Assembly: GCA_012295275.1 (NCBI GenBank)
Contig: CM022676.1
Location: 1,860,001-1,924,000, forward strand
Direction of reading: 5' to 3'
Length of the DNA: 64,000 nt
From: Chrysomallon squamiferum
Taxonomy: Eukaryota > Animalia > Mollusca
Positions 3,635 to 60,702 of this stretch are shown one piece after another; the stretch's first letter is position 1, and each line of letters begins with the position of its first letter. The notes below the pieces were generated by a model that ran no database searches, was not told where the DNA came from, and worked only from the letters and a program-made list of their open reading frames with translations. The position numbers and the translations under genes were made by a program.

Positions 3635-4538
3635 ATATATATATATGTATCTGTGTGTGTATATGAATATATGTCTATCTATCTATCTATCTGTGTGTAT
3701 ATGAATATATGTCTATCTATCTATCTATCGATCTATATATGTGTGTGTGTGTGTGTGAATATGTCTATCTATATATATATATATTTGTCACAAGATTTAT
3801 GAGTGTCTGGTTTGAGTTTGCAAGTGTGTGTGTTTGTGTGTGATCTCTGTATATATGTTTAAGTACATATATGTTTTGAGTGAATGAGTATGTATGTGCA
3901 CATGTGTGTGTGTACATGTATAAGTGTGTGTAACTGTATACCACTATATGTGTATAGTTTTCACTAATCGGTTGAATTCAGCTCTTCACACTGAAGTTAA
4001 CTGCTAAATATTTGTTTAGAAACCTTTTCTCGTTGACAAGTATCACGTTTTAATTACTGTGGCTATATTGAGCAGTTGACATTTCTAGTAGCATAGACTT
4101 TAATATGGCTGTCTCAGTAGTGATTCTTTCTAATTAGCCTGTTTTATGGAGAGAATCGTTTTTGTTTTTTTGTTTTTTATTAGTTGTTTTTTTATTGTCT
4201 TAGCTAAACTTACCAGTTTTGTGGCTGTTTTGGGATTCATTTTCTTTTTTTTCAATTTAAATCTTTCTTTTTTTGGGGGGCATTTTTTTCTTCATCATTT
4301 TCTTTGTCTTCTTTTAGAATGAGAAATAATTGTAAAACGAATTAAGCGTCCTTTTAACTGTTCTTTTTTCTAATTCCAACCAGCATATTCACACATCTCC
4401 TCTGATCTCCATCAGCAGATAAATTTTCTTTGTAAAAATCATCACTAATTTAATTAATTTTTTATTATTTTTTGATTTTTTCCTGTTCATGCTTTCACAT
4501 TTTTCTTGTTGTCTGTTTTTTAAATATTTTATTTTCAG

Positions 4539-4733
4539 ATGACTTTCGGATGTTTTGTGGCGATCTTGGAAATGAGGTTACAGATGAACATCTGACTCGA
4601 GCATTTTCTAAATATCCATCGTTCATTAAGGCTAAAGTCATTCGAGATCGCCGTAGCAACAAGACAAAGGGTTACGGTTTCGCCAGCTTCAGGGACCCTG
4701 CAGACTTCACTAGAGCCATGAGAGAGATGAACG
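4539..4733 (+). CDS. RBM42: RBM42 exon, main part of the RRM
   Basis: attttcag|AT ... AACG|GTAAGG. Encodes DDFRMFCGDLGNEVTDEHLTRAFSKYPSFIKAKVIRDRRSNKTKGYGFASFRDPADFTRAMREMNG with RNP2 and RNP1. Confidence 0.96.
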
Positions 4734-7370: not shown

Positions 7371-8984
7371 ATCAGTTATTCTGGTGTGTGACAGTCTGAG
7401 TTGTAACACAGTGCTAGATGTTGACATGTAATAACCAGCTGACATTGTCCTGTGGGAGATCTAGTTTCTTACATTAATGTTTAATTTGATTGTATTTCTC
7501 ACATTTTATTTTGTCTAAGTAAGCTGACATTTCCAAGCTAAACAAATATTATCAGATTTGATCAGGATTTATTTCTGTAATGCAGGGTTTAAACAGCAGG
7601 AAATGAATTCCATGACATTTAGTCTGTTTTCAACAGGAATATTGTTTTGTTTCTGATCTGGTTTTATATATTTTTTTATTTTTCGAATTTTTTAGTTTTT
7701 TTGTTTGTTTTTTTTTGGCTTTTTTTCTTTTTTGTTATTACAGAAGATTTGTGAACAGAATGTGAACTGAGATTATTTTCTTTCTGATGTTTATCAGCTG
7801 AGATAGGTCAAAAACAGAATCCTTTTGCTCATCTCATCTCTCACAGGTCAGTGAGTGAGTCATTCTCATGGTTGAGTAAATGTGATATCTCTGACTGGGT
7901 ATTGTTATAAGAAGTATTCTCTTTTTTTCTAATAATTAATGACCTAAGAGTTCATTAAAAAAAAATAAAAAAAAAATACCAATAACATCATCATTGAAAA
8001 CAACAAACAACAGCAGCAGACAACCACACAACAACAACAGCAACATCAACAGCAACACATCCCTTCCCAACAAAAATTATAAAAACAATAACTGAAACTA
8101 AGACAAACATCAGAGTTTTATTTCATGTAAATACTGATTAAAATGTGTACATGCTGTTCATATTAAAAGCATCTTCACATTGTTACTGAATTTGCTTTCA
8201 AAACTTTGTGAAGATAGTATTTTCACTTGACTAGAATTAGACAGATTAACACAAATTCAGATTTCATGTCCTGTTGTCTCTTAAGCTTCATTTTACATTT
8301 AGGCTAAACAAAACAAATTTTACATTTAAAGATATGAAAACCTACGTTCAAAATTATGAAATATTACAGTCACGGTAAAGATTTTATTAAATTTTACATA
8401 TTAATTACATTTCGCTAGTAGAAACATTTTGGTAATGTTCAATTTAAATATGGGATAGTAAAATTCACATTTTAAGGAAAAAAGATACAAAAAAACTAAT
8501 TTTAAGTGTTAATTCTAATTTTTATTATAATATCATAAATATGTGATAAAATGTTCATAAAATAATACTTAATTTTTCATAACATTTTGTTATTTCAGTT
8601 CCTTGGTCTTTAAATATCTATTAATTTGTGACATATATATATATATTAGCACTGACTGTTAAAATATTTTACAGAAGTATTAGTATAGCAATTATTGCCT
8701 GTCAGACTGAGTATTATGTGACAAATTTTGACTTTCTAGATGTGAAAAGTTTTATAAGACTGAGTGTAGAAGTGAGTGATTTTTTTCCAATAATAAAAAT
8801 AAATATTCACCAGTCTATTTGTTTATTTATTTATTTATTTTTTTTTTTTTTTTTTCGGGGGGGACAAATTATTTTCTTAAAGTTTTTTTTTCCATACACA
8901 AAAATTCACTGAGTATTAATTGCACTGGCATCACTTCATCTTTGGTTTTGAAGATTTTCTTTATGAGTGTTTCCATGGTTACGT

Positions 8985-9076
8985 CTAATGTGCTACCTGG
9001 AATTTGCCGCGGCGCTGTAACTGACTCTGAATTGCTTTGTATTCCTCAGGGAAGAACTGCTGTACCCACTTGTGAT
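8985..9076 (-). CDS. Candidate alternative terminal coding exon of the nested neuropeptide-like gene
   Basis: Minus-strand acceptor tttttgtttgtcacag. Phase 1 matches the 11867 donor, giving (D)HKWVQQFFPEEYKAIQSQLQRRGKFQVAH*. It is a GC-richer island in AT-rich intron with AATAAA downstream (about 8820-8840). Confidence 0.5.
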
Positions 9077-9396
9077 CTGTGACAAACAAAAACATAATAA
9101 TAATATATGTATGTAGGCATCTATGTATACACACACATATACATAAAACACATGAGAAAACTGCATTGAAATCTTAGTTTTTTCAATTGTAGCATAGTGT
9201 TAATAGGATGGCCCACATACACACACACACACACACACACATATATACATACAAACACATAATTAGTTATGCATATTTAATCATTTCTATTATTAACAAC
9301 AACCAAAACATACATACACAAACACACACATACACGCACATACATATATATACATATACAAACACACACATACACACAGACACACCCACACACACA

Positions 9397-9456
<60 letters not shown>

Positions 9457-10126
9457 TATGTGCTCAAACATATTTACATTCACCCAGGCCTTCATAATAC
9501 TTTAAATATTAATGTCATCGGATTTAATCCAAAATAGGGTATTAGTCTGCAAATAGTTTAATAAATGTCTAATCATCTATCAAGGTCAGCATATAAAATG
9601 TTGAAATTCATCCGTATATGTAACTGAATACCCACAACTCGGTTGTTATGATAGTCTCCAGATTGTAATAAGTCCTGTTACACAACCAATGTGTGATTAC
9701 AGAAAGGTGTAATTCCATTAAGGATCTTCTCTTACTGATCTGTCAGTAATTAACAGTCCTGGTTACATTCACTCTTACTTACTTTCACTGCTTACATTAT
9801 TAGTATCAGTATCTCATACATTTTTCTCTGTAGTTTGTCTAACATTAACACCTAACATGACGGTCATGTTTTGTTTTTTAACTGATGGTAATTGCTTTTC
9901 ACCTCATCCATTATTTAAAAACTCACTGTTGGCTATTGCTTGTATTACAAACCTGTTTAAAAATGTTGCCTGAAGGTTATTTTTGTTCAGAAACTTGTCT
10001 TAATTGTCAAAAAAAAATGTGGTGAGGGTTTTTTTTTTCCATTACAGATTTTTATTTTTTTTATTTTTATTTGATTTAACAGGTTTAGGAAATTGTACAG
10101 ACTTGGTTTGTCCAGTCATTTCATAC

Positions 10127-10157
<31 letters not shown>

Positions 10158-10481
10158 AAAAGAATCAGACAATGAAAGAAACAAAAAAATAAATAACTAC
10201 AAAACAAGCAATAATAATAATAATAAAAATTATAATAATTTTAATAATAATAATAAAATAATACAAATAAAATCAATTTCATATGAGTAATGTCTCTGTT
10301 TTTGCTTCACAAATAAATTAAAACAATTTGCAGATTAAAACAACCTTTCTGAATTGCAGATTAAAACAGACTTTCAGACTGGCAAATTAAAAAACTAAAA
10401 ACTTTTAGATTTGAAGATTAAAAAATTTTTGATTGGTCAGTTAAATCGAACTTTCTGATTGGCAGATTAAGAATCAGGTGA

Positions 10482-10603
10482 CTAAAACCTACGTTGTTTA
10501 TTGGATGTGAGGACGTATGGCAGCAGCATTCTCCTCAGATAGGGGTCAGCATGCCATGATGTCGAGCCCCAGCTTCTTTTGCCCATAGCGCCCCAGGATG
10601 ATC
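10482..10603 (-). CDS. Nested neuropeptide-like precursor, terminal coding exon with amidation site
   Basis: attacag|GA, phase 1. Encodes GSSWGAM-GKR-SWGSTSWHADPYLRRMLLPYVLTSNKQRRF*; GKR is an amidation plus dibasic cleavage signal. Confidence 0.8.
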
Positions 10604-10804
10604 CTGTAATATATAATGATATTGTACTGATGACATACTGGATGTATATTCTCCTGAAAGTGTATTAGCATTAATATATCACTGTTAAAAGAATAAATCT
10701 TTTAAATGTGGTTAAAATTACTACAGGGATATTATGTTAATTGTGTGACAATTTTTTGTGTTATCACTATATATATATATTTAATTTTCTTAATTTTAAA
10801 ATTT

Positions 10805-10839
<35 letters not shown>

Positions 10840-11371
10840 GATATTTATAGATATATGAGAGAGAGAGAGAGACAGAGAGAGAGAGAGAGTAAACATTTTT
10901 ATTAACACACATTCAATCACAAAACACACATACTAATTCACTCAATTAACAACAAATAATGTTATAAGTTACATTTTTGATATTATAAAGACACATTATG
11001 TTTGTATTAATAAATGATTATTCCTTTCAACAAGGTTAATTCAGACTTTTACAAATAAGGAGACTAGTTAATTGAAAATTGAAATTAAAAGAATTTATTT
11101 AGTTTGATGTGTATAATAAAAGTTCAGGAAATCAATCTCCAATGATGAGCTTGTTCTGAATGAATTAGAGATTAATTAATTGGTCAGTATATGTACAGAG
11201 AAACACAAAACCACAAAAAACAACAACCATACAGTATAAAAGCAATGAACAGCACAGATAATTTGTAATGATGTATGAATAATAAGATTATACTAAAATG
11301 AGGTTTATTTTATTATCTTGTAAAAGTACTGAAACTGAAAACAACTCTCTCTCTGTCTTTCTGTGTGTGTG

Positions 11372-11443
<72 letters not shown>

Positions 11444-11866
11444 GGGGGTCTTTAAAAGTAATATATAAACAATAAAGAGGTATATTTAGAATGTAATGAT
11501 AAATTAATATAGATTCAATACACATCTTTAATAACTTCACCCACTTTATGTTTTTGTTCATCACTTTCCATAGCTAACTCACTTGATATGAAGAGAAATT
11601 GCCTGTTACACATCTAATAATATATATTATATATATTTTTTTGCATACAGTAACTTTAAGATGACTGTCTTTGGTAGCTCACACATCTAATGATAATCTA
11701 TGATACAATAACCTGATGTGAAGAAAAATGGCGGGTCAAACATCTAATTATACTCTTTGATACAATAACCCACCTGACTGGCCAATTAAAACAAACACTC
11801 TGATTGGTCAATCAAAATGTTGGGGTTAAACATCTAATGATAATTTTTGACACAGTAATAACCCAC

Positions 11867-12122
11867 CTGATGTGAACAGGAAAGGTGGACCGTACATTCC
11901 ATCTTCTTCCTTCTGCTTGTGCTGCTGCTGCTGCTGCTGCTGACTCTCTGAGGGGTCATACGACGTGTTCACGTCACCCTCGTAGTCCATGTTTGTGCAG
12001 CCAGCGCCCCAGCCACTGCAGCGGAAGAAGCTCTGCCGACGTGCACGTGGTGGCATGGAAAGGACACTTTGAACTGTGAGGGTAACTAGACATGTCAGTA
12101 GAAGGTGGGACAGTCCTTTCAT
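11867..12122 (-). CDS. Nested neuropeptide-like precursor, first coding exon (signal peptide, furin-type site, Cys-ring peptide)
   Basis: Acceptor ttgtttttcag (exon starts 12138), ATG 12122, donor G|GTGGGT. Encodes MKGLSHLLLTCLVTLTVQSVLS-MPP-RARR-QSFFRCSGWGAGCTNMDYEGDVNTSYDPSESQQQQQQQHKQKEEDGMYGPPFLFTS; 125 aa when joined to 10603-10482. Confidence 0.82.
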
Positions 12123-13390
12123 ATCTCTTACAAAGTAGCTGAAAAACAACAGTAAATACATACATACATACATACATACATAGGTAACTAGACATGTCAG
12201 TAGAAGGTGGGACAGTCCTTTCATATCTCTTACAAAGTAGCTGAAAAACAACAGTAAATACATACATACATATATACATACATAGGTAACTAGACATGTC
12301 AGTAGAAGGTGGGACAGTCCTTTCATATCTCTTACAAAGTAGCTGAAAAACAACAGTAAATACATACATACATACATACATACATACATACATACATACA
12401 TAGGTAACTAGACATGTCAGTAGAAGGTGGGACAGTCCTTTCATATCTCTTACAAAGTAGCTGAAAAACAACAGTAAATACATACATACATACATACATA
12501 CATACATACATAGGTAACTAGACATGTCAGTAGAAGGTGGGACAGTCCTTTCATATCTCTTACAAAGTAGCTGAAAAACAACAGTAAATACATACATACA
12601 TACATACATACATAGGTAACTAGACATGTCAGTAGAAGGTGGGACAGTCCTTTCATATCTCTTACAAAGTAGCTGAAAAACAACTGAAAAATACAAACAT
12701 ACATACATACATACATACATACACAGGTAACTAGACATGTCAGTAGAAGGTGGGACAGTCCTTTTATATCTCTTACAAAGTAGCTGAAAAACAACAGTAA
12801 ATACATACATACATACATACATACATACATACATACATACATACACAGGTAACTAGACATGTCAGTAGAAGGTGGGACAGTCCTTTCATATCTCTTACAA
12901 AGTAGCTGAAAAACAACAGTAAATACATACATACATACATACATACATACATACATACATACACAGGTAACTATACATGTCAGTAGAAGGTGGGACAGTC
13001 CTTTCATATCTCTTACAAAGTAGCTGAAAAACAACAGTAAATACATACATACATACATACATACATACATACATACATACATACATACATAGGTAACTAT
13101 ACATGTCAGTAGAAGGTGGGACAGTCCTTTCATATCTCTTACAAAGTAGCTGAAAAACAACAGTAAATACATACATACATACATACATACATACATACAT
13201 ACATACATACACAGGTAACTAGACATGTCAGTAGAAGGTGGGACAGTCCTTTCATATCTCTTACAAAGTAGCTGAAAAACAACAGTAAATACATACATAC
13301 ATACATACATACATAGGTAACTACATGTCAGTAGAAGGTGGGACAGTCCTTTCATATCTCTTACAAAGTAGCTGAAAACACAACAGTAAA
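12081..13390 (-). repeat. 12-copy tandem array: 76-bp constant unit (3' splice site, 16-nt UTR, ATG, 14 signal-peptide codons) separated by variable (TACA)n
   Basis: Unit starts at 12081, 12183, 12285, 12403, 12513, 12615, 12726, 12848, 12966, 13092, 13214 and 13316; periods 102-126 bp. The copy at 12081 is the real exon start. Confidence 0.95.
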
Positions 13391-13424
<34 letters not shown>

Positions 13425-27160: not shown

Positions 27161-27273
27161 GAAAGTATGTTGGCAATCGGCCTGTGAAACTGAGGAAAAG
27201 TACGTGGAAAGATCGCAACCTGGACGTAGTGCGGAGAAAAGACAAAGAGAAAAAGAGACTCGGTCTTAGATAA
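27161..27273 (+). CDS. RBM42: RBM42 last coding exon
   Basis: gtctttgtag|GA. Encodes GKYVGNRPVKLRKSTWKDRNLDVVRRKDKEKKRLGLR*, completing the RRM in phase with the 4733 donor. AATAAA signals follow at about 27300-27365 and 27650. Confidence 0.95.
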
Positions 27274-40585: not shown

Positions 40586-40760
40586 ATGTGGAAAGAACTG
40601 TTTTTGGTGCTCGTCGTCTCGCTCGTGGTTGTGGACGTCACGGATGCGGTGTCGTGCAGCACCTACTCCGACGGCTGCAGCATTCGTCTCGGACTTGTTT
40701 TTTCAGGATAAAGAACTGTTTTAAATGCTCTTCGATAAACACGACGTCTGTTACGGATGC
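40586..40760 (+). pseudogene. Conodipine-like (group IX-type) secreted phospholipase A2, first coding exon, with frameshift and stop (pseudogene or assembly error)
   Basis: tatttcag|G ATG. Encodes signal peptide MWKELFLVLVVSLVVVDVTDA and VSCSTYSDGCSIRLGL, then after a frame shift in a T run FFQDKELF*MLFDKHDVCYGC. The HDxCY catalytic motif is at 40740-40754. No canonical phase-0 donor follows 40760. Confidence 0.75.
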
Positions 40761-41748: not shown

Positions 41749-41951
41749 GGTGCACTGCGGGGTACGAGCAGGTCGTCATGTGACAAGTATTTGTACAGAA
41801 ACTCGAGGAGGAGGTGCAAGTGGTATCTGCCGTACTGCCAGCGCTTCGCCCTCCTGTACTACCTCGCCGTCAGGTCGGGGGGCATAAACACTACCGAAAA
41901 ACATCACCCGACTGGTGCAGGCAGAGCTGGGTGCCCGGATGTATGAAATAA
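41749..41951 (+). pseudogene. Conodipine-like PLA2, last coding exon (one frameshift in a G6 run)
   Basis: tgttgtttcag|GGT. Encodes GALRGTSRSSCDKYLYRNSRRRCKWYLPYCQRFALLYYLAVRSG, then with one added G, GHKHYRKTSPDWCRQSWVPGCMK*. The CD, YYxAVR and WCxxxWV motifs are typical of this PLA2 group. Confidence 0.78.
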
Positions 41952-55770: not shown

Positions 55771-55908
55771 ACTATTATTTTTTTTGTTTTTTTGTTGTTG
55801 TTGTCATTATTACATTACTACTACTACCACCAATACTGCAACAACAACAACAACTACTACTATTATCTTTTTTTCTAATTCTACAAAGGCTGACGTCATC
55901 ATTTCAAG

Positions 55909-55996
55909 ATGTCGAAGTTGGTATTGTTGTTGCTGCTTTTAACGGCAGTTGTCGCTGTTACAGCACGTAGTTACAGAGGGACAGTCTTTCGTGCCA
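55909..55996 (+). CDS. Secreted Cys-rich modular protein, signal-peptide exon
   Basis: Acceptor AG at 55887-55888, ATG 55909, MSKLVLLLLLLTAVVAVTA-RSYRGTVFRA + A|GTACGT (phase 1). Confidence 0.8.
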
Positions 55997-56247
55997 GTAC
56001 GTTTTATAACACTAACTATTTCACGTTTTTCTTCAACATATTTATTACATGTACTTATATATGTAAGTTTTTATTATATCTCTTTACGAAATTATATTAT
56101 ACATCTGTAATTACCTTCCAGAAAATTTTATCTCATGAGATTAAACTACATTTTTTATTTTATTTTATTATTATGGAAAATAAATGAGGAAGTTTTCTTC
56201 TATTTTTTTTCTTCTTATTGTTATGGTTACCGTTGTTGTTGTTGTTG

Positions 56248-56303
<56 letters not shown>

Positions 56304-56368
56304 TTCACAGTTATTATGCTACATATGTAGCCTCTGTTTTCCACTGATAAATCTCTTTGTTTTTCTAG

Positions 56369-56524
56369 AGGTATATGGGAAGTACATCGCGAAGTCAGGA
56401 AAATGCAAAGTGTTTGGAAAATACTATCGTTCTGGCCAGCTTATCCGCAGTCCCAGCAATTTGAAGATGTTCACGTTCAGATGTGTTAGAGGAAGGGGCG
56501 TAACTCTTGTTAGATCGAAAAGCT
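56369..56524 (+). CDS. Secreted Cys-rich modular protein, coding exon 2
   Basis: ttttctag|AG ... T|GTACGC. Encodes KVYGKYIAKSGKCKVFGKYYRSGQLIRSPSNLKMFTFRCVRGRGVTLVRSKS. Confidence 0.75.
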
Positions 56525-57788
56525 GTACGCTATTTTATTTCATTTACACACGCACACCAGTACTCTCACACTAACCCAGGTACATACGCACTTACACGTA
56601 TATACAAATATTACTCACTGATCTTCGTTTAGTATTTTGTAATCTCTGAATTTAGTTTCTGTCTGTCTTCGTGATTCAGGGTTTTTATTTTTTTATTTTT
56701 AGGTTTTGTTTGTGTGTTTTATACACATAAATTTAAACATATATATACATTTACAACATTCAGTCATATACATAGATACATAGAAGAATACATACACATA
56801 CACGTACATACACATACATACAAACGCACATACATACGTTCATACATACATACATACATACATACATACATACATACATACCTACATACATACATACATA
56901 CATACATAAGTTATTTATACGTATAATCAGAACACCATTTCCTTAACAGTATAGGGAAATTAAAACTTTAAAATTTTAAAATTTTAAAAAATACACCCCC
57001 CCGTAAAAAAAAAAAAAAAAAAAAAACACACACAAAAACCCCCACAAAAAGTGAACAACAACAAACAAATATCTATGGTCTATCTTAAGTAACCTTATTG
57101 AAATCCTGACAAAAAAAAAAAAAAAAAAAAAAGAAAAAAAAGGAAAATCAAACATTGTAAATCACGTGTTAACAAACACACATCAGTGTAAAGGAAGGGA
57201 GAGAACCGGATTTGAGAGACCTAACGTCAGATTAGATTCTTAATTAGGTTATTTCCATGACAACTATTCAACTAGACCGGGATATATCTCTCTCGATTCC
57301 GAGTTTTGTTACGTATTCAGACAAAAAGGCAACAAAATGGTTGGATCTTTTGGTATAACTTTTGTTTTAATTTTGCTCATCATAGTTCACATATCATTCA
57401 CTGACTCTCAAAACAATGAAACCGATTCAGCTTCGGGTCACGTATTTATTTTAATATTCTTGAGAAAGGATGTATCATTAACAAACAAACAAACAAATAA
57501 ATAAATAAATAAATAAATAGAGTTATAAAACGTAAAATAACATATATTAAGGCGTATATTGACAAATAATTCAATATTTTATTTCTAAGTTAGATGTGTT
57601 TTGTTCTTTTGAAGATTATTGTTTTCTTGTTTATTTAATTGTTTTTCTTAATCCGCTGTCTATTATTTACCTTCTGTCTGTTTTTCAGTCTGTCTGTCTG
57701 CCTGTCTGTCTGTCAGTCTGTCAATCAATCAGTCTTGAATCACTCAGTCTGTCTGTCTGTCTGTTTCATTCTTTTATTTATTTTGTAG

Positions 57789-57932
57789 ATTGTCTTTACA
57801 AGGGTCACAACATTAGATATGGCAGGACTTTCAGAGACGGGTGCTCTGTCTTTAAGTGTGGAATTTACATGTACAGAACAAGTAATCCATGGAGAAAAAA
57901 TGTTAAAAGCAAAATGAGCCTGATAAGTTCAG
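57789..57932 (+). CDS. Secreted Cys-rich modular protein, coding exon 3
   Basis: ttttgtag|AT ... G|GTAAAA. Encodes YCLYKGHNIRYGRTFRDGCSVFKCGIYMYRTSNPWRKNVKSKMSLISS. Confidence 0.8.
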
Positions 57933-58314
57933 GTAAAACTGTGTTGTTTATTTATTTATTTATTTGTTTGTTTATTTATTTTTTAAGTGTTTGTTTGCTT
58001 ATTTATTTTTATCTGTTTGTTTATTTGTTTGTTTATTTATATGTTTGTTTGTTATTTCTTTGTTATTTATTAGTTGTTGTTTTTTTGTTGTTAATTTCGT
58101 GTACTTAATTAATGTATGTATGTATATGTATATATGTATACAATTTATTTATCTTTTTACTTATTTTCTTTGTTTCTTTTACTCGATTTTCTTTTATTTT
58201 CTTTCTCACACATTTTTTTTTAATTTTTATATTTATATATTTATTTACTGTTTCTAGTTCAGATTTGATCTAACCTGTTAATTTCTTTATAACAAAATCT
58301 TTGTACACTTCCAG

Positions 58315-58485
58315 GATGTCGGGATGAGTCGGGGAGGTGTCATAGGGCGGGGTCCAAGGAGGAAAAGGGACAGAAGGTCTGTCACTGTGACAGTCGCACT
58401 CTGAAATGGCTGTGTCTTTACTTACCGCCCTCGTTTGGTCCTCCTAAGCGTCTACCACCTATACCCAACCCGAACGTTTGTCAAG
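58315..58485 (+). CDS. Secreted Cys-rich modular protein, coding exon 4 (absent from ORF track)
   Basis: cttccag|GA ... G|GTATGT. Encodes GCRDESGRCHRAGSKEEKGQKVCHCDSRTLKWLCLYLPPSFGPPKRLPPIPNPNVCQ. Confidence 0.82.
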
Positions 58486-58959
58486 GTATGTATGACGTCG
58501 TCTTCTTCTGTTACTACAACTACTTCTACTACTACTACTACTAGTAGTAGTACTACTACACTACTACTACAACTACACTACTACTACTACAACTACACTA
58601 CAACTACTACTACAATACTACCCTACTACTATTACTACAACGACTCTACTACCACTACTACTACCTCTACAACTACTACTACTACTGCTACACTACTACT
58701 ACTACTAGACTACTGCTACTAATACACTACTACAACAAAACTATTGCTGCCACTACTGCTACTACTTCTACTACTACAACATACACTACTACTATTACAA
58801 CTACACTACTAGCATTACTACTGCTATTACTACTACTATTACTACTACTATTACTATTACTACTGCTATAAGTACTATTGGTATTACAATTACTATTGCT
58901 ATCACAACTCTACTGCTAATGCTATTACCACTAATAGCACTAGTTCCATATTTCTAATG

Positions 58960-59001
<42 letters not shown>

Positions 59002-60526
59002 TTACCACTACTATTAGTATTACTATTACCACTGCACAACTACTCGTACTACTCCTACTACTACTTCTTGTAATTGATGCAAACTGTCGTGAGTCACGCG
59101 CACATTTCTGCTGCTTTCACTTGTACTTCGGGTCTGTTTGAACACAAATCACGTCTCTGTGTTAGGATAACAAGGATTCACAACAACTTGATGTTAACAC
59201 CACTGTAAGCTAGCTAGGGACGCTACTTCATGTTTACTTGAACTTGTTAATCGCTAAGTCTTTTCATCTGATGAACTTGTATGATACAAAGCATTTAACA
59301 TTCATTAACTGTTCAACGTTATCTATTTAACTTGTTTCACGCCTGTTTACATTTACACGTTTATCCATTCTTGCGTCCGCTCATTCGTGACAATCCGTCA
59401 TCATCATCTGTCATTCATCCATCCATCCATCCATCCATCCATCCTCCTTACTCGTCCATTCCTCCGTCTCTCCTTCCGTCCACTCACATCTGTCCATCCA
59501 TTGAATCATTTGCTCATGAAACCATCCAGTCTGTCCATAGACACACACACATATACATACACACACACACATACACACACATATATACATACACACATAC
59601 ACACACATATATACATACACACACATATATAATACACACATACACACACATATATACACACACACACATACACACACACAGCACACATACATACACACAT
59701 ACACACATATACACACACACACTCATTCATACACATACACACACACACATATATCCACACACATATATAAACACACATATACATACACACACACACATAC
59801 ATACACACACACACATACACACACGCATATACACACGCAGATATACACACATACGCACATGCACAGACATACGCACACATACGCACACAGACATACACAC
59901 ATACACACATATAAACACACATACACACATATATAGACACACACACGTATATAGACACACACACACGTATATATACACACACACGTATATAGACATACAC
60001 ACACGTATATGTACACACACAAACACACACATACATACACACACGTATATGTACAGACATACACACTAACACACACAAACACACACACATATATACATAC
60101 AGACATATATATGTAATTTAATTTATTACTTTTTATTAAATCACTGATTTCTTATTTGTTTCTTTCTTTCTTTATTTTCTTATTAACTTATTACTTTGTC
60201 AGTTTTGTTTGTTTCTATATTAATTTATTTATTAATTAATTTATTTACTTGTTTGTTTATTTGTTTATTTATTTGTTAGTTTTATTTACTTATTTATACA
60301 ATAATTTATTTATATACTTAATTATTTGATTGTTTATTTAATTATTTATTTATTTATTTATTTGTTTGTTGTTTGTTTCTTTATCCACTGCTCAGGTACT
60401 TTATTATTATTATTATTCAATGAGCAAAATAAAGAGCTACTTTCTAGCTAGACGTTTCACGTCATTTACGTAATTATATTCCATATAAGTATTTACACTT
60501 TTTAAAATAATTTTTGCTTTTCTCCT

Positions 60527-60599
<73 letters not shown>

Positions 60600-60649
60600 G
60601 TCTTTCTCTGTCTCTGTCTGTCTCTCTCTCTGTCTCTGTCTGTCTCTCT

Positions 60650-60702
<53 letters not shown>

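What the first reader, a model, noticed from the sequence alone, without database searches (positions are those of the whole stretch)
10482..12138. Unrecognised neuropeptide-like prepropeptide nested antisense in the RBM42 intron
Seen: two minus-strand exons splice in phase to 125 aa. The product has a signal peptide, an RARR site, then QSFFRCSGWGAGC (N-terminal Gln, 8-residue Cys ring), an acidic/poly-Q spacer, and PPFLFTSGSSWGAM-GKR followed by a third SWG. Established: signal peptide, RxRR, N-terminal Gln (pyroGlu) and GKR (amidation) are prohormone hallmarks. Inference: a Trp-Gly-motif peptide family that I cannot assign to any named molluscan family. I have an unverified recollection of uncharacterised arthropod precursors with paired GWG motifs.
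Basis: partly seen in the sequence, partly recalled or inferred. Interest (0 to 1): 0.8.

Follow-up and report, generated by a model that had tools for sequence, protein, structure and literature searches.

The report
Unnamed mollusc-wide peptide hormone precursor
A small gene lying backwards inside an intron of RBM42 encodes a protein conserved from snails to scallops that is predicted to be secreted and cut into a ring-headed, amidated signalling peptide, likely a neuropeptide of a family we could not find named.

Summary
Its two exons do splice to 125 aa, yet the Gigantopelta and Haliotis orthologues match a third coding exon at 9076-8985, giving 152 aa. It sits antisense in the 22.4-kb last intron of RBM42. 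Homologues occur in 11 named gastropod and scallop species, all labelled uncharacterized, and probably in a chiton. Conservation concentrates in two blocks: a head after R-x-x-R/KR (Q-x-x-F-x-C-x-GWGAG-C, then Tyr) and a tail (FTSG-x-SW-x-x-x-GKR), joined by a linker of 31-108 residues that is barely conserved. This is a prohormone pattern. No cleavage site follows the ring, so the proposed 13-residue peptide is unsupported; here a single 63-residue pyroGlu/disulfide/amide product is equally possible. No Pfam, PDB or literature match was found; WGAGamide, GSWN, GNamide, GWE and EP/CCHamide fail. The head resembles starfish GnRH in register but lacks its amide. Neural expression, processing, arthropod homologues and conserved nesting are untested. 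Verdict: a likely undescribed molluscan neuropeptide family.

The parts
11867..12138 (-). Coding exon 1: acceptor, 16 nt of leader, ATG at 12122, codons 1-85 plus one base; phase-1 donor GTGGGT
   Evidence: tblastn of P0001 E 2e-31
12057..12122 (-). Predicted signal peptide, about residues 1-22
   Evidence: hydrophobic core from residue 7, mean Kyte-Doolittle 2.5 over 11 residues; helix 2-21 in the P0001 model; cleavage position inferred, SignalP not run
12036..12047 (-). RARR, predicted furin/convertase site (residues 26-29)
   Evidence: R29 invariant in 12 of 12; RxxR, RR or KR in 16 of 16
11982..12035 (-). Conserved head, residues 30-47: N-terminal Gln, C35-C42 ring with GWGAG, Tyr47
   Evidence: 18 of 18 identical to Gigantopelta and three Haliotis, 15 of 18 to Patella and three caenogastropods, 8-9 of 18 to scallops; Gln in 15 of 16, His in Argopecten
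11892..11981 (-). Variable acidic/poly-Q linker, residues 48-77, with no dibasic or RxxR site
   Evidence: 2-4 of 30 identities outside Gigantopelta and Haliotis
10584..11891 (-). Conserved tail, residues 78-92, split by intron 1 inside FTSG; predicted C-terminal Met-amide
   Evidence: F83 T84 S85 G86 S88 W89 invariant in 12 of 12
10604..11866 (-). Intron 1, 1263 nt, GT-AG, phase 1
   Evidence: four unnamed homologues called without splicing lose similarity at this point
10493..10603 (-). Coding exon 2 (111 nt): end of tail, GKR (10583-10575), start of C-terminal peptide; phase-1 donor GTAGGT
   Evidence: tblastn of P0001 E 1.9e-20
9077..10492 (-).
8985..9076 (-).
   Evidence: 23 of 29 identical to P0001 118-146
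12081..13416 (-). Tandem array of 12 near-identical units, each the acceptor, ATG and first 14 codons of exon 1, separated by (TATG)n; only the last copy runs on into the gene
4538..4733 (+). RBM42 penultimate coding exon (RRM), host gene
   Evidence: donor
27161..27273 (+). RBM42 last coding exon, host gene

Best explanation
This is a conserved molluscan gene, nested antisense in the last RBM42 intron, whose predicted 152-residue product is likely a secreted prohormone that is processed to a neuropeptide or peptide hormone. Inferred steps: the signal peptide is removed; a convertase cuts after RARR; Gln30 cyclises to pyroglutamate; Cys35-Cys42 close an 8-residue ring; a cut at GKR with carboxypeptidase trimming and PAM amidation leaves ...SWGAM-amide. 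Because this species has no dibasic or RxxR site between head and tail, the product is either one 63-residue peptide blocked at both ends (calculated monoisotopic mass 7053.9 Da) or a ring peptide and an amidated tail peptide freed at single basic residues; I put these at about even odds for this species and favour two peptides in scallops and caenogastropods, which have Arg just before the tail. The peptide(s) would most likely signal through a G-protein-coupled receptor. The helical C-terminal 57 residues are probably an associated peptide. Nesting in RBM42 is shown for this genome only and is probably incidental.
For: Shown: gene structure with canonical sites and three exons matched by orthologues; homologues in 11 named mollusc species plus 4 unnamed records; 19 invariant positions among 12 full-length sequences, 18 of them at the first cleavage site, the ring, the tail and GKR; exactly two Cys after the first site in 14 of 16 sequences (the other two are read-throughs into intron 1) and GKR after the tail in 12 of 12 complete sequences; linker length 31-108 and composition free to vary; a chiton entry with KR-QWLFHCGGWGPGC behind a signal-like start in a bulk candidate file of PMC6425005 (one passage seen; entry lacks the tail). 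The AlphaFold model has a signal helix, no confident structure over residues 33-91 and helices 100-147. Nine of the ten ESM Atlas feature rows shown for P0001 were small secreted peptide precursors or known neuropeptide precursors, all under 0.9, so a lead only. Established knowledge: signal + RxxR/KR + Gln + GKR with conservation confined to peptide regions is the standard prohormone signature.
Against: No expression in nervous tissue, no spliced read and no peptide detection were obtained. The one RNA-run contig that lay on the gene (run X3, 184 nt, depth 3, 10430-10597) crosses donor 2 unspliced, which fits the 125-aa read-through, pre-mRNA of either gene, or DNA. The precursor is absent from ganglion catalogues where it might be expected: no motif hit in the supplements of the scallop (PMC5996578), oyster (PMC8398477) and abalone (PMC6523705) studies, although scallop and abalone genes exist; low or non-neural expression would explain that. 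No clean site frees the ring peptide in 9 of 16 sequences. Argopecten has His in place of Gln.
Confidence: 0.8

Rival explanations
1. It is a divergent offshoot of the GnRH/AKH/corazonin/ACP superfamily whose GnRH-like head gained a disulfide and a C-terminal extension, and it signals through a receptor of that clade.
For: The head aligns without gaps to starfish GnRH pQIHYKNPGWGPG-amide (PMC4923880): Gln1, aromatic 4, basic 5, Gly8-Trp9-Gly10-x-Gly12; the chiton entry has GWGPG exactly. Gly8-Trp9 is named as conserved in cephalopod and echinoderm GnRHs (PMC5592718). Mollusc AKH and wasp ACP precursors end SWGAGKR and GWGPGKR.
Against: No amide after Gly12 (Cys follows); a propeptide and RxxR separate Gln from the signal, whereas the AKH/ACP precursors seen have Gln straight after it; scallops carry one extra residue that breaks the register; no Pfam match; molluscs already have GnRH/corazonin and AKH genes. 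The resemblance was noticed after the fact and was not scored; PMC5592718 itself warns that partial motifs mislead.
Confidence: 0.12
2. It is a secreted, convertase-processed peptide with a non-neural role (exocrine, pheromonal, mucosal or immune).
For: Missed by three ganglion catalogues; processing signals alone do not show neural origin.
Against: The head is identical across Gigantopelta and Haliotis and 15 of 18 identical out to limpet and caenogastropods; such slow change fits a receptor ligand better than a defence or pheromone peptide (inference). The product here is acidic, not cationic.
Confidence: 0.12
3. The family is already named in literature or supplements that I could not search.
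For: Subscription papers, figures and cut supplement files are outside the search; files 2 and 3 of PMC6425005 were cut when stored; the supplements of PMC8735849 and of the insect papers were not seen; the family could be the mollusc side of a named arthropod or annelid peptide too diverged.
Against: All 11 named records are 'uncharacterized' or 'hypothetical'; no Pfam hit for 6 of 6 proteins; motif and gene-id searches of 8.1 million papers and 0.36 million preprints gave nothing relevant; no hit in the 3.9-million-character supplement of PMC8557429.
Confidence: 0.25
4. The first reader's 125-aa two-exon form is the main product in this species, exon 3 being skipped or vestigial.
For: One RNA-run contig reads through donor 2; AATAAA signals lie at 10071-10056 inside intron 2; Patella and scallop precursors are only 132-134 aa and do not match exon 3.
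Against: Exon 3 is open, in phase, has canonical sites and is 23 of 29 identical to Gigantopelta. The contig cannot show strand or origin. Either form carries the same head and tail.
Confidence: 0.1
5. The gene is being inactivated in this lineage by the tandem array of decoy acceptors and start codons upstream of exon 1.
For: Eleven extra copies of acceptor + ATG, with GTATGT donor-like hexamers 61 nt after the acceptor in the 10 copies examined.
Against: All three exons are intact, with head, tail and C-terminal peptide highly conserved against Gigantopelta.
Confidence: 0.04

Closest known systems
GnRH/AKH/corazonin/ACP superfamily, closest starfish ArGnRH (PMC4923880)
   Same: N-terminal Gln, aromatic at 4, G8-W9-G10-x-G12 in the same register in gastropods; a helical associated peptide after a GKR site
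   Different: Disulfide ring, no amide after the GWGxG, a propeptide before Gln, a second conserved block and a long linker before the amide; scallop register shifted by one
Excitatory peptide / CCHamide (PMC12969411)
   Same: One disulfide and a C-terminal amide on a single-copy precursor; gastropod tail WGA[MIN]-amide recalls arthropod GAH-amide
   Different: Lophotrochozoan EP has eight residues between the Cys and ends GGN-amide on the ring peptide itself; here six residues, ring and amide are 31-108 residues apart, and scallops end WNPI, Patella WSVI
Allatostatin C (scallop precursor seen)
   Same: C-x6-C ring
   Different: AST-C ring is at the precursor's C-terminus and has no GWG; no second block
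Bivalve WGAGamide/SYGAGamide, GNamide, GSWN and GWE/GWamide (PMC8398477, PMC5996578)
   Same: Short W/G-rich motifs; GNamide has pyroGlu, GWG and amide
   Different: Their precursor sequences lack the C-x-GWGAG-C ring and the FTSG-x-SW tail; the scallop SYGAGamide gene is LOC110455033 whereas the scallop homologue of this gene is LOC110453452

Membership tests
Neuropeptide/peptide-hormone precursor (general) | N-terminal signal peptide | tested here: met
   Hydrophobic 11-residue core (mean KD 2.35-3.5) before the first site in 16 of 16; helix 2-21; SignalP itself not run
Neuropeptide/peptide-hormone precursor (general) | Conserved convertase sites and amidation signal flanking conserved peptide regions | tested here: met
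   R29 and G93-K94-R95 invariant in 12 of 12; linker not conserved
Neuropeptide/peptide-hormone precursor (general) | Basic site releasing the ring peptide from the linker | tested here: inconclusive
   No dibasic or RxxR site in the linker of 9 of 16 sequences, including this one; present in 7 of 16
Neuropeptide/peptide-hormone precursor (general) | Expression in neurons or endocrine cells; mature peptide detected; receptor activated | not testable with these tools
   No neural RNA or peptidomics data were reachable
GnRH/AKH/corazonin/ACP | N-terminal pyroGlu with Trp at position 7-9 | tested here: met
   Gln1, Gly8-Trp9 in gastropods against Table 1 of PMC5592718; Trp10 in scallops
GnRH/AKH/corazonin/ACP | C-terminal amide closing a peptide of about 8-12 residues | tested here: not met
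   Gly12 is followed by Cys, not by a basic site, in 16 of 16
GnRH/AKH/corazonin/ACP | Peptide directly after the signal peptide | tested here: not met
   Short propeptide with RxxR/RR/KR precedes Gln; AKH/ACP precursors have none
GnRH/AKH/corazonin/ACP | Activates a GnRH/AKH- or corazonin-type receptor | not testable with these tools
   needs a receptor assay
EP/CCHamide | C-x8-C ring (lophotrochozoans) ending GGN-amide on the same short peptide | tested here: not met
   C-x6-C, amide far downstream against PMC12969411 passages
Allatostatin C | C-x6-C ring peptide at the precursor's C-terminus | tested here: not met
   Ring size met, but it is N-terminal and of different sequence
WGAGamide/SYGAGamide, GSWN, GNamide, GWE | Sequence homology to the published precursors | tested here: not met
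   Compared by eye with the alignments and sequences; no shared ring or tail; motif searches of both supplements negative
Doppelganger-related peptides (PMC10501145) | One of five described cysteine frameworks | tested here: inconclusive
   Descriptions do not fit and 5 supplement files held had no motif hit; figure alignments not visible
Fliktin / PaOGS36577 | Sequence homology | not tested
   Recalled lead; passages show only that the two names are one insect family; sequence not seen; no insect hit

The most novel reading that the evidence does not exclude
An ancient, overlooked protostome peptide system: a single long ligand with a pyroGlu/disulfide GnRH-like head and an amidated tail joined by a free tether, present from chitons to scallops and perhaps matching an unnamed arthropod cluster, that is the missing ligand of an orphan invertebrate receptor, possibly a further branch of the GnRH/corazonin superfamily.
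Probability: 0.15. Interest if true: 0.85.

Novelty: new variant of a known kind. Interest (0 to 1): 0.58.

Why it matters
Mollusc neuropeptide catalogues are thought to be near complete, yet many of their peptide receptors are orphans (general knowledge). A precursor kept from limpets, abalone and neogastropods to scallops, and probably chitons, that those catalogues missed gives defined synthetic candidates for receptor screens and for peptidomics, in groups that include aquaculture species. The ring-plus-tether-plus-amide layout, if made as one piece, would be an unusual peptide architecture, and the GnRH-like register of the head is directly testable.

Tried and rejected
No whole genome was held, so copy number and paralogues outside the window are unknown; within the window the three motifs occur once each. 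Sequencing runs: no RNA holder listed; 0 joints in 4 of 4 runs laid on 10300-12300 and no RNA cover of exon 1, which says nothing about expression; exon 3 was not examined with reads. Metagenome scan with the family alignment: 4 of 289 pattern matches passed tblastn, all off-frame chance matches in 67-68% GC bacterial DNA, dropped. Of 11 hits in the 1.84-billion representative search, 6 were family members and 5 (P0006, P0007, P0009, P0010, P0011) were repetitive unrelated proteins, dropped; that search used exon 1 only. The profile search scored only the 7992 best candidates. Pfam: 0 of 6 proteins matched. PDB by sequence: 2 rows at E 0.41 and 1.3, ignored. Foldseek on the pLDDT-65 model: no match. 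Atlas structure rows: all under the bar. Paper searches for motifs and gene ids: 0 papers; 19, none on neuropeptides of this kind; one AKH paper listed; 18; GWGPG hits are starfish GnRH and plant peptides; 0; 123 papers, 30 listed, all 'GWG motif' in unrelated fields; the 93 unlisted were not seen. Earlier scan findings: none in 5 look-ups. Conservation of nesting in RBM42 could not be tested: no tool gave genomic context for the homologues. No complex prediction was sent, as no candidate receptor was available.

Full report
Observation. On the minus strand an AG acceptor at 12138 precedes an ATG at 12122; a GT donor after 11867 and an AG acceptor before 10603 join in phase to give 125 residues and a stop at 10484-10482. 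The motifs are as described. The locus lies in the last intron of RBM42, 4734-27160 on the plus strand, whose flanking exons match human RBM42 379-444 and 444-479. The exons are GC-rich islands (48-54% against 27-29%) and the ring motif did not occur in 100 shuffles of the window.

A missed exon. The closest database protein, Gigantopelta aegis LOC121385743, runs 30 residues beyond the 125-aa product. tblastn places it on three stretches of the window at E 2e-31, 2e-20 and 5e-12; the third is 9074-8988, and the Haliotis asinina protein also hits it at E 0.001. A donor at 10493|GTAGGT and an acceptor AG|9076 join in phase, giving 152 residues with 119 identities to Gigantopelta, against 95 for the short form; AATAAA follows at 8839 and 8831. 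Against this, the only RNA-run contig that lay on the gene (X3, 10430-10597, depth 3) crosses that donor unspliced. It cannot show strand or origin, and poly(A) signals at 10071-10056 leave a short isoform possible. Both forms carry the same conserved peptides.

The family. Searches with exon 1, with P0001 and with an 8-sequence profile returned 12 family proteins, and cluster look-up added three: Gigantopelta, three Haliotis, Patella, Littorina, Nucella, Babylonia, Mizuhopecten, Pecten, Argopecten and four unnamed records. All 11 named ones are 'uncharacterized' or 'hypothetical'. A chiton entry with KR-QWLFHCGGWGPGC appears in supplement file 2 of PMC6425005, which by its content is the bulk set of candidate secreted proteins, not a named family; it lacks the tail, so its membership rests on the head alone. 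No arthropod, annelid or cephalopod sequence was returned; both searches have stated limits (exon 1 only; shared words and 7992 candidates). The four unnamed records lose similarity at FTSG, where intron 1 falls here; one continues G-E-S, as a G|GTGAGT donor read through would give, so the intron position is probably shared (inference).

Anatomy. Among 12 full-length sequences 19 positions are invariant: P24, R29, F33, C35, G37-C42, F83-G86, S88, W89 and G93-K94-R95. The 18-residue head is identical in Gigantopelta and Haliotis and 15 of 18 in Patella and the caenogastropods; the linker shares 2-4 of 30 residues beyond Haliotis and is 31-108 residues long, acidic here, basic in scallops, Gly-rich in neogastropods. 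The poly-Q and the SWG after GKR are local. The model of P0001 has a signal helix, no confident structure over 33-91 and helices over 100-147, with no PDB match.

Mechanism. Shown: the gene, its exons by homology, the conservation pattern. Inferred from established prohormone biochemistry: signal removal, cleavage after RARR, pyroglutamate at Gln30, a Cys35-Cys42 disulfide, cleavage at GKR and amidation of Met92. The open point is the middle. In 9 of 16 sequences, this one included, the linker has no dibasic or RxxR site; scallops have RxxR just before the tail and caenogastropods an Arg nearby. In this species, Gigantopelta, Haliotis, Patella and scallops the Gln-to-amide span is 55-63 residues. 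One long peptide and two short ones are both open. A GPCR target is inferred from the peptide class only.

Comparison with known families. No Pfam family. The similar-sounding bivalve families WGAGamide/SYGAGamide, GSWN, GNamide and GWE are different precursors (PMC8398477 section 2.7 and supplement part 6 of 7; PMC5996578 supplement passages). EP/CCHamide fails on ring size and amide position (PMC12969411 passages). AST-C shares the ring size only. The head lines up with starfish GnRH at Gln1, Gly8, Trp9, Gly10 and Gly12 (PMC4923880 passages; PMC5592718 passages), but two defining features of that superfamily, the amide after a short peptide and the position straight after the signal, are not met, so it is not filed there; working through such a receptor remains a 12% rival. 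The recalled insect lead PaOGS36577 is fliktin (passages of PMC10570428, PMC12604039, PMC9552230); its sequence was not seen.

What was searched in print. Full-text motif and gene-id searches; topic searches: 22, 34, 44, 45, 68. Supplements searched by motif: PMC5996578 (6 files), PMC8398477, PMC6523705 (otherwise only the listing seen), PMC10501145 (passages and section 3.1.5 also read), PMC6425005 (two cut when stored), PMC8557429 (passages also read). PMC8735849 was seen in passages only. Subscription papers, figures, bioRxiv supplements and cut files were not visible, so a prior name cannot be excluded; I put that at about one in four.

The upstream array. Twelve near-identical copies of the acceptor, ATG and first 14 codons stand head to tail at 12081-13416, separated by (TATG)n; one has lost its ATG. 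A contig in run X1, which differs from the window elsewhere in intron 1, carries the unit joined to the microsatellite, so the array is probably real. It looks like a recent local expansion; whether it affects splicing is unknown. The acceptor implies an upstream non-coding exon that was not found.

Verdict. A real, conserved, apparently unnamed molluscan prohormone, with a corrected 152-residue model. It is a new family within a well-known class; expression, processing, receptor, range beyond molluscs and conservation of the nesting are all untested. Interest 0.58.

Noticed in passing
window 12081-13416 (-): Twelve tandem copies of this gene's splice acceptor, start codon and first 14 codons, interleaved with (TATG)n that supplies GTATGT donor-like sites; a natural set of decoy mini-exons that would be out of frame if included.
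   Followed up: partly
window 11590-11790 (-): Degenerate partial copies of the exon 1 donor region inside intron 1 (one still reads PPFFFTSG), so both ends of exon 1 have been locally duplicated.
   Followed up: partly
window 55900-63590 (+): Several short Cys-rich exon-like frames of a repeated type (C-x-x-K-G-x-x-Y ... C-x-C ... W-x-C) with signal-like starts at about 55906 and 57340; by eye reminiscent of von Willebrand factor C-type modules (label recalled); no Pfam hit for the 6 pieces tested.
   Followed up: partly
window 40586-40708 and 41752-41943 (+): A signal-peptide exon followed by a Cys- and Arg-rich frame, possibly a small secreted defence peptide gene; no Pfam hit for either piece.
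   Followed up: partly
P0003 (Littorina saxatilis): The C-terminal region carries a tandem duplication that gives a second SWGAN-KKR copy of the tail.
   Followed up: no
   Followed up: no
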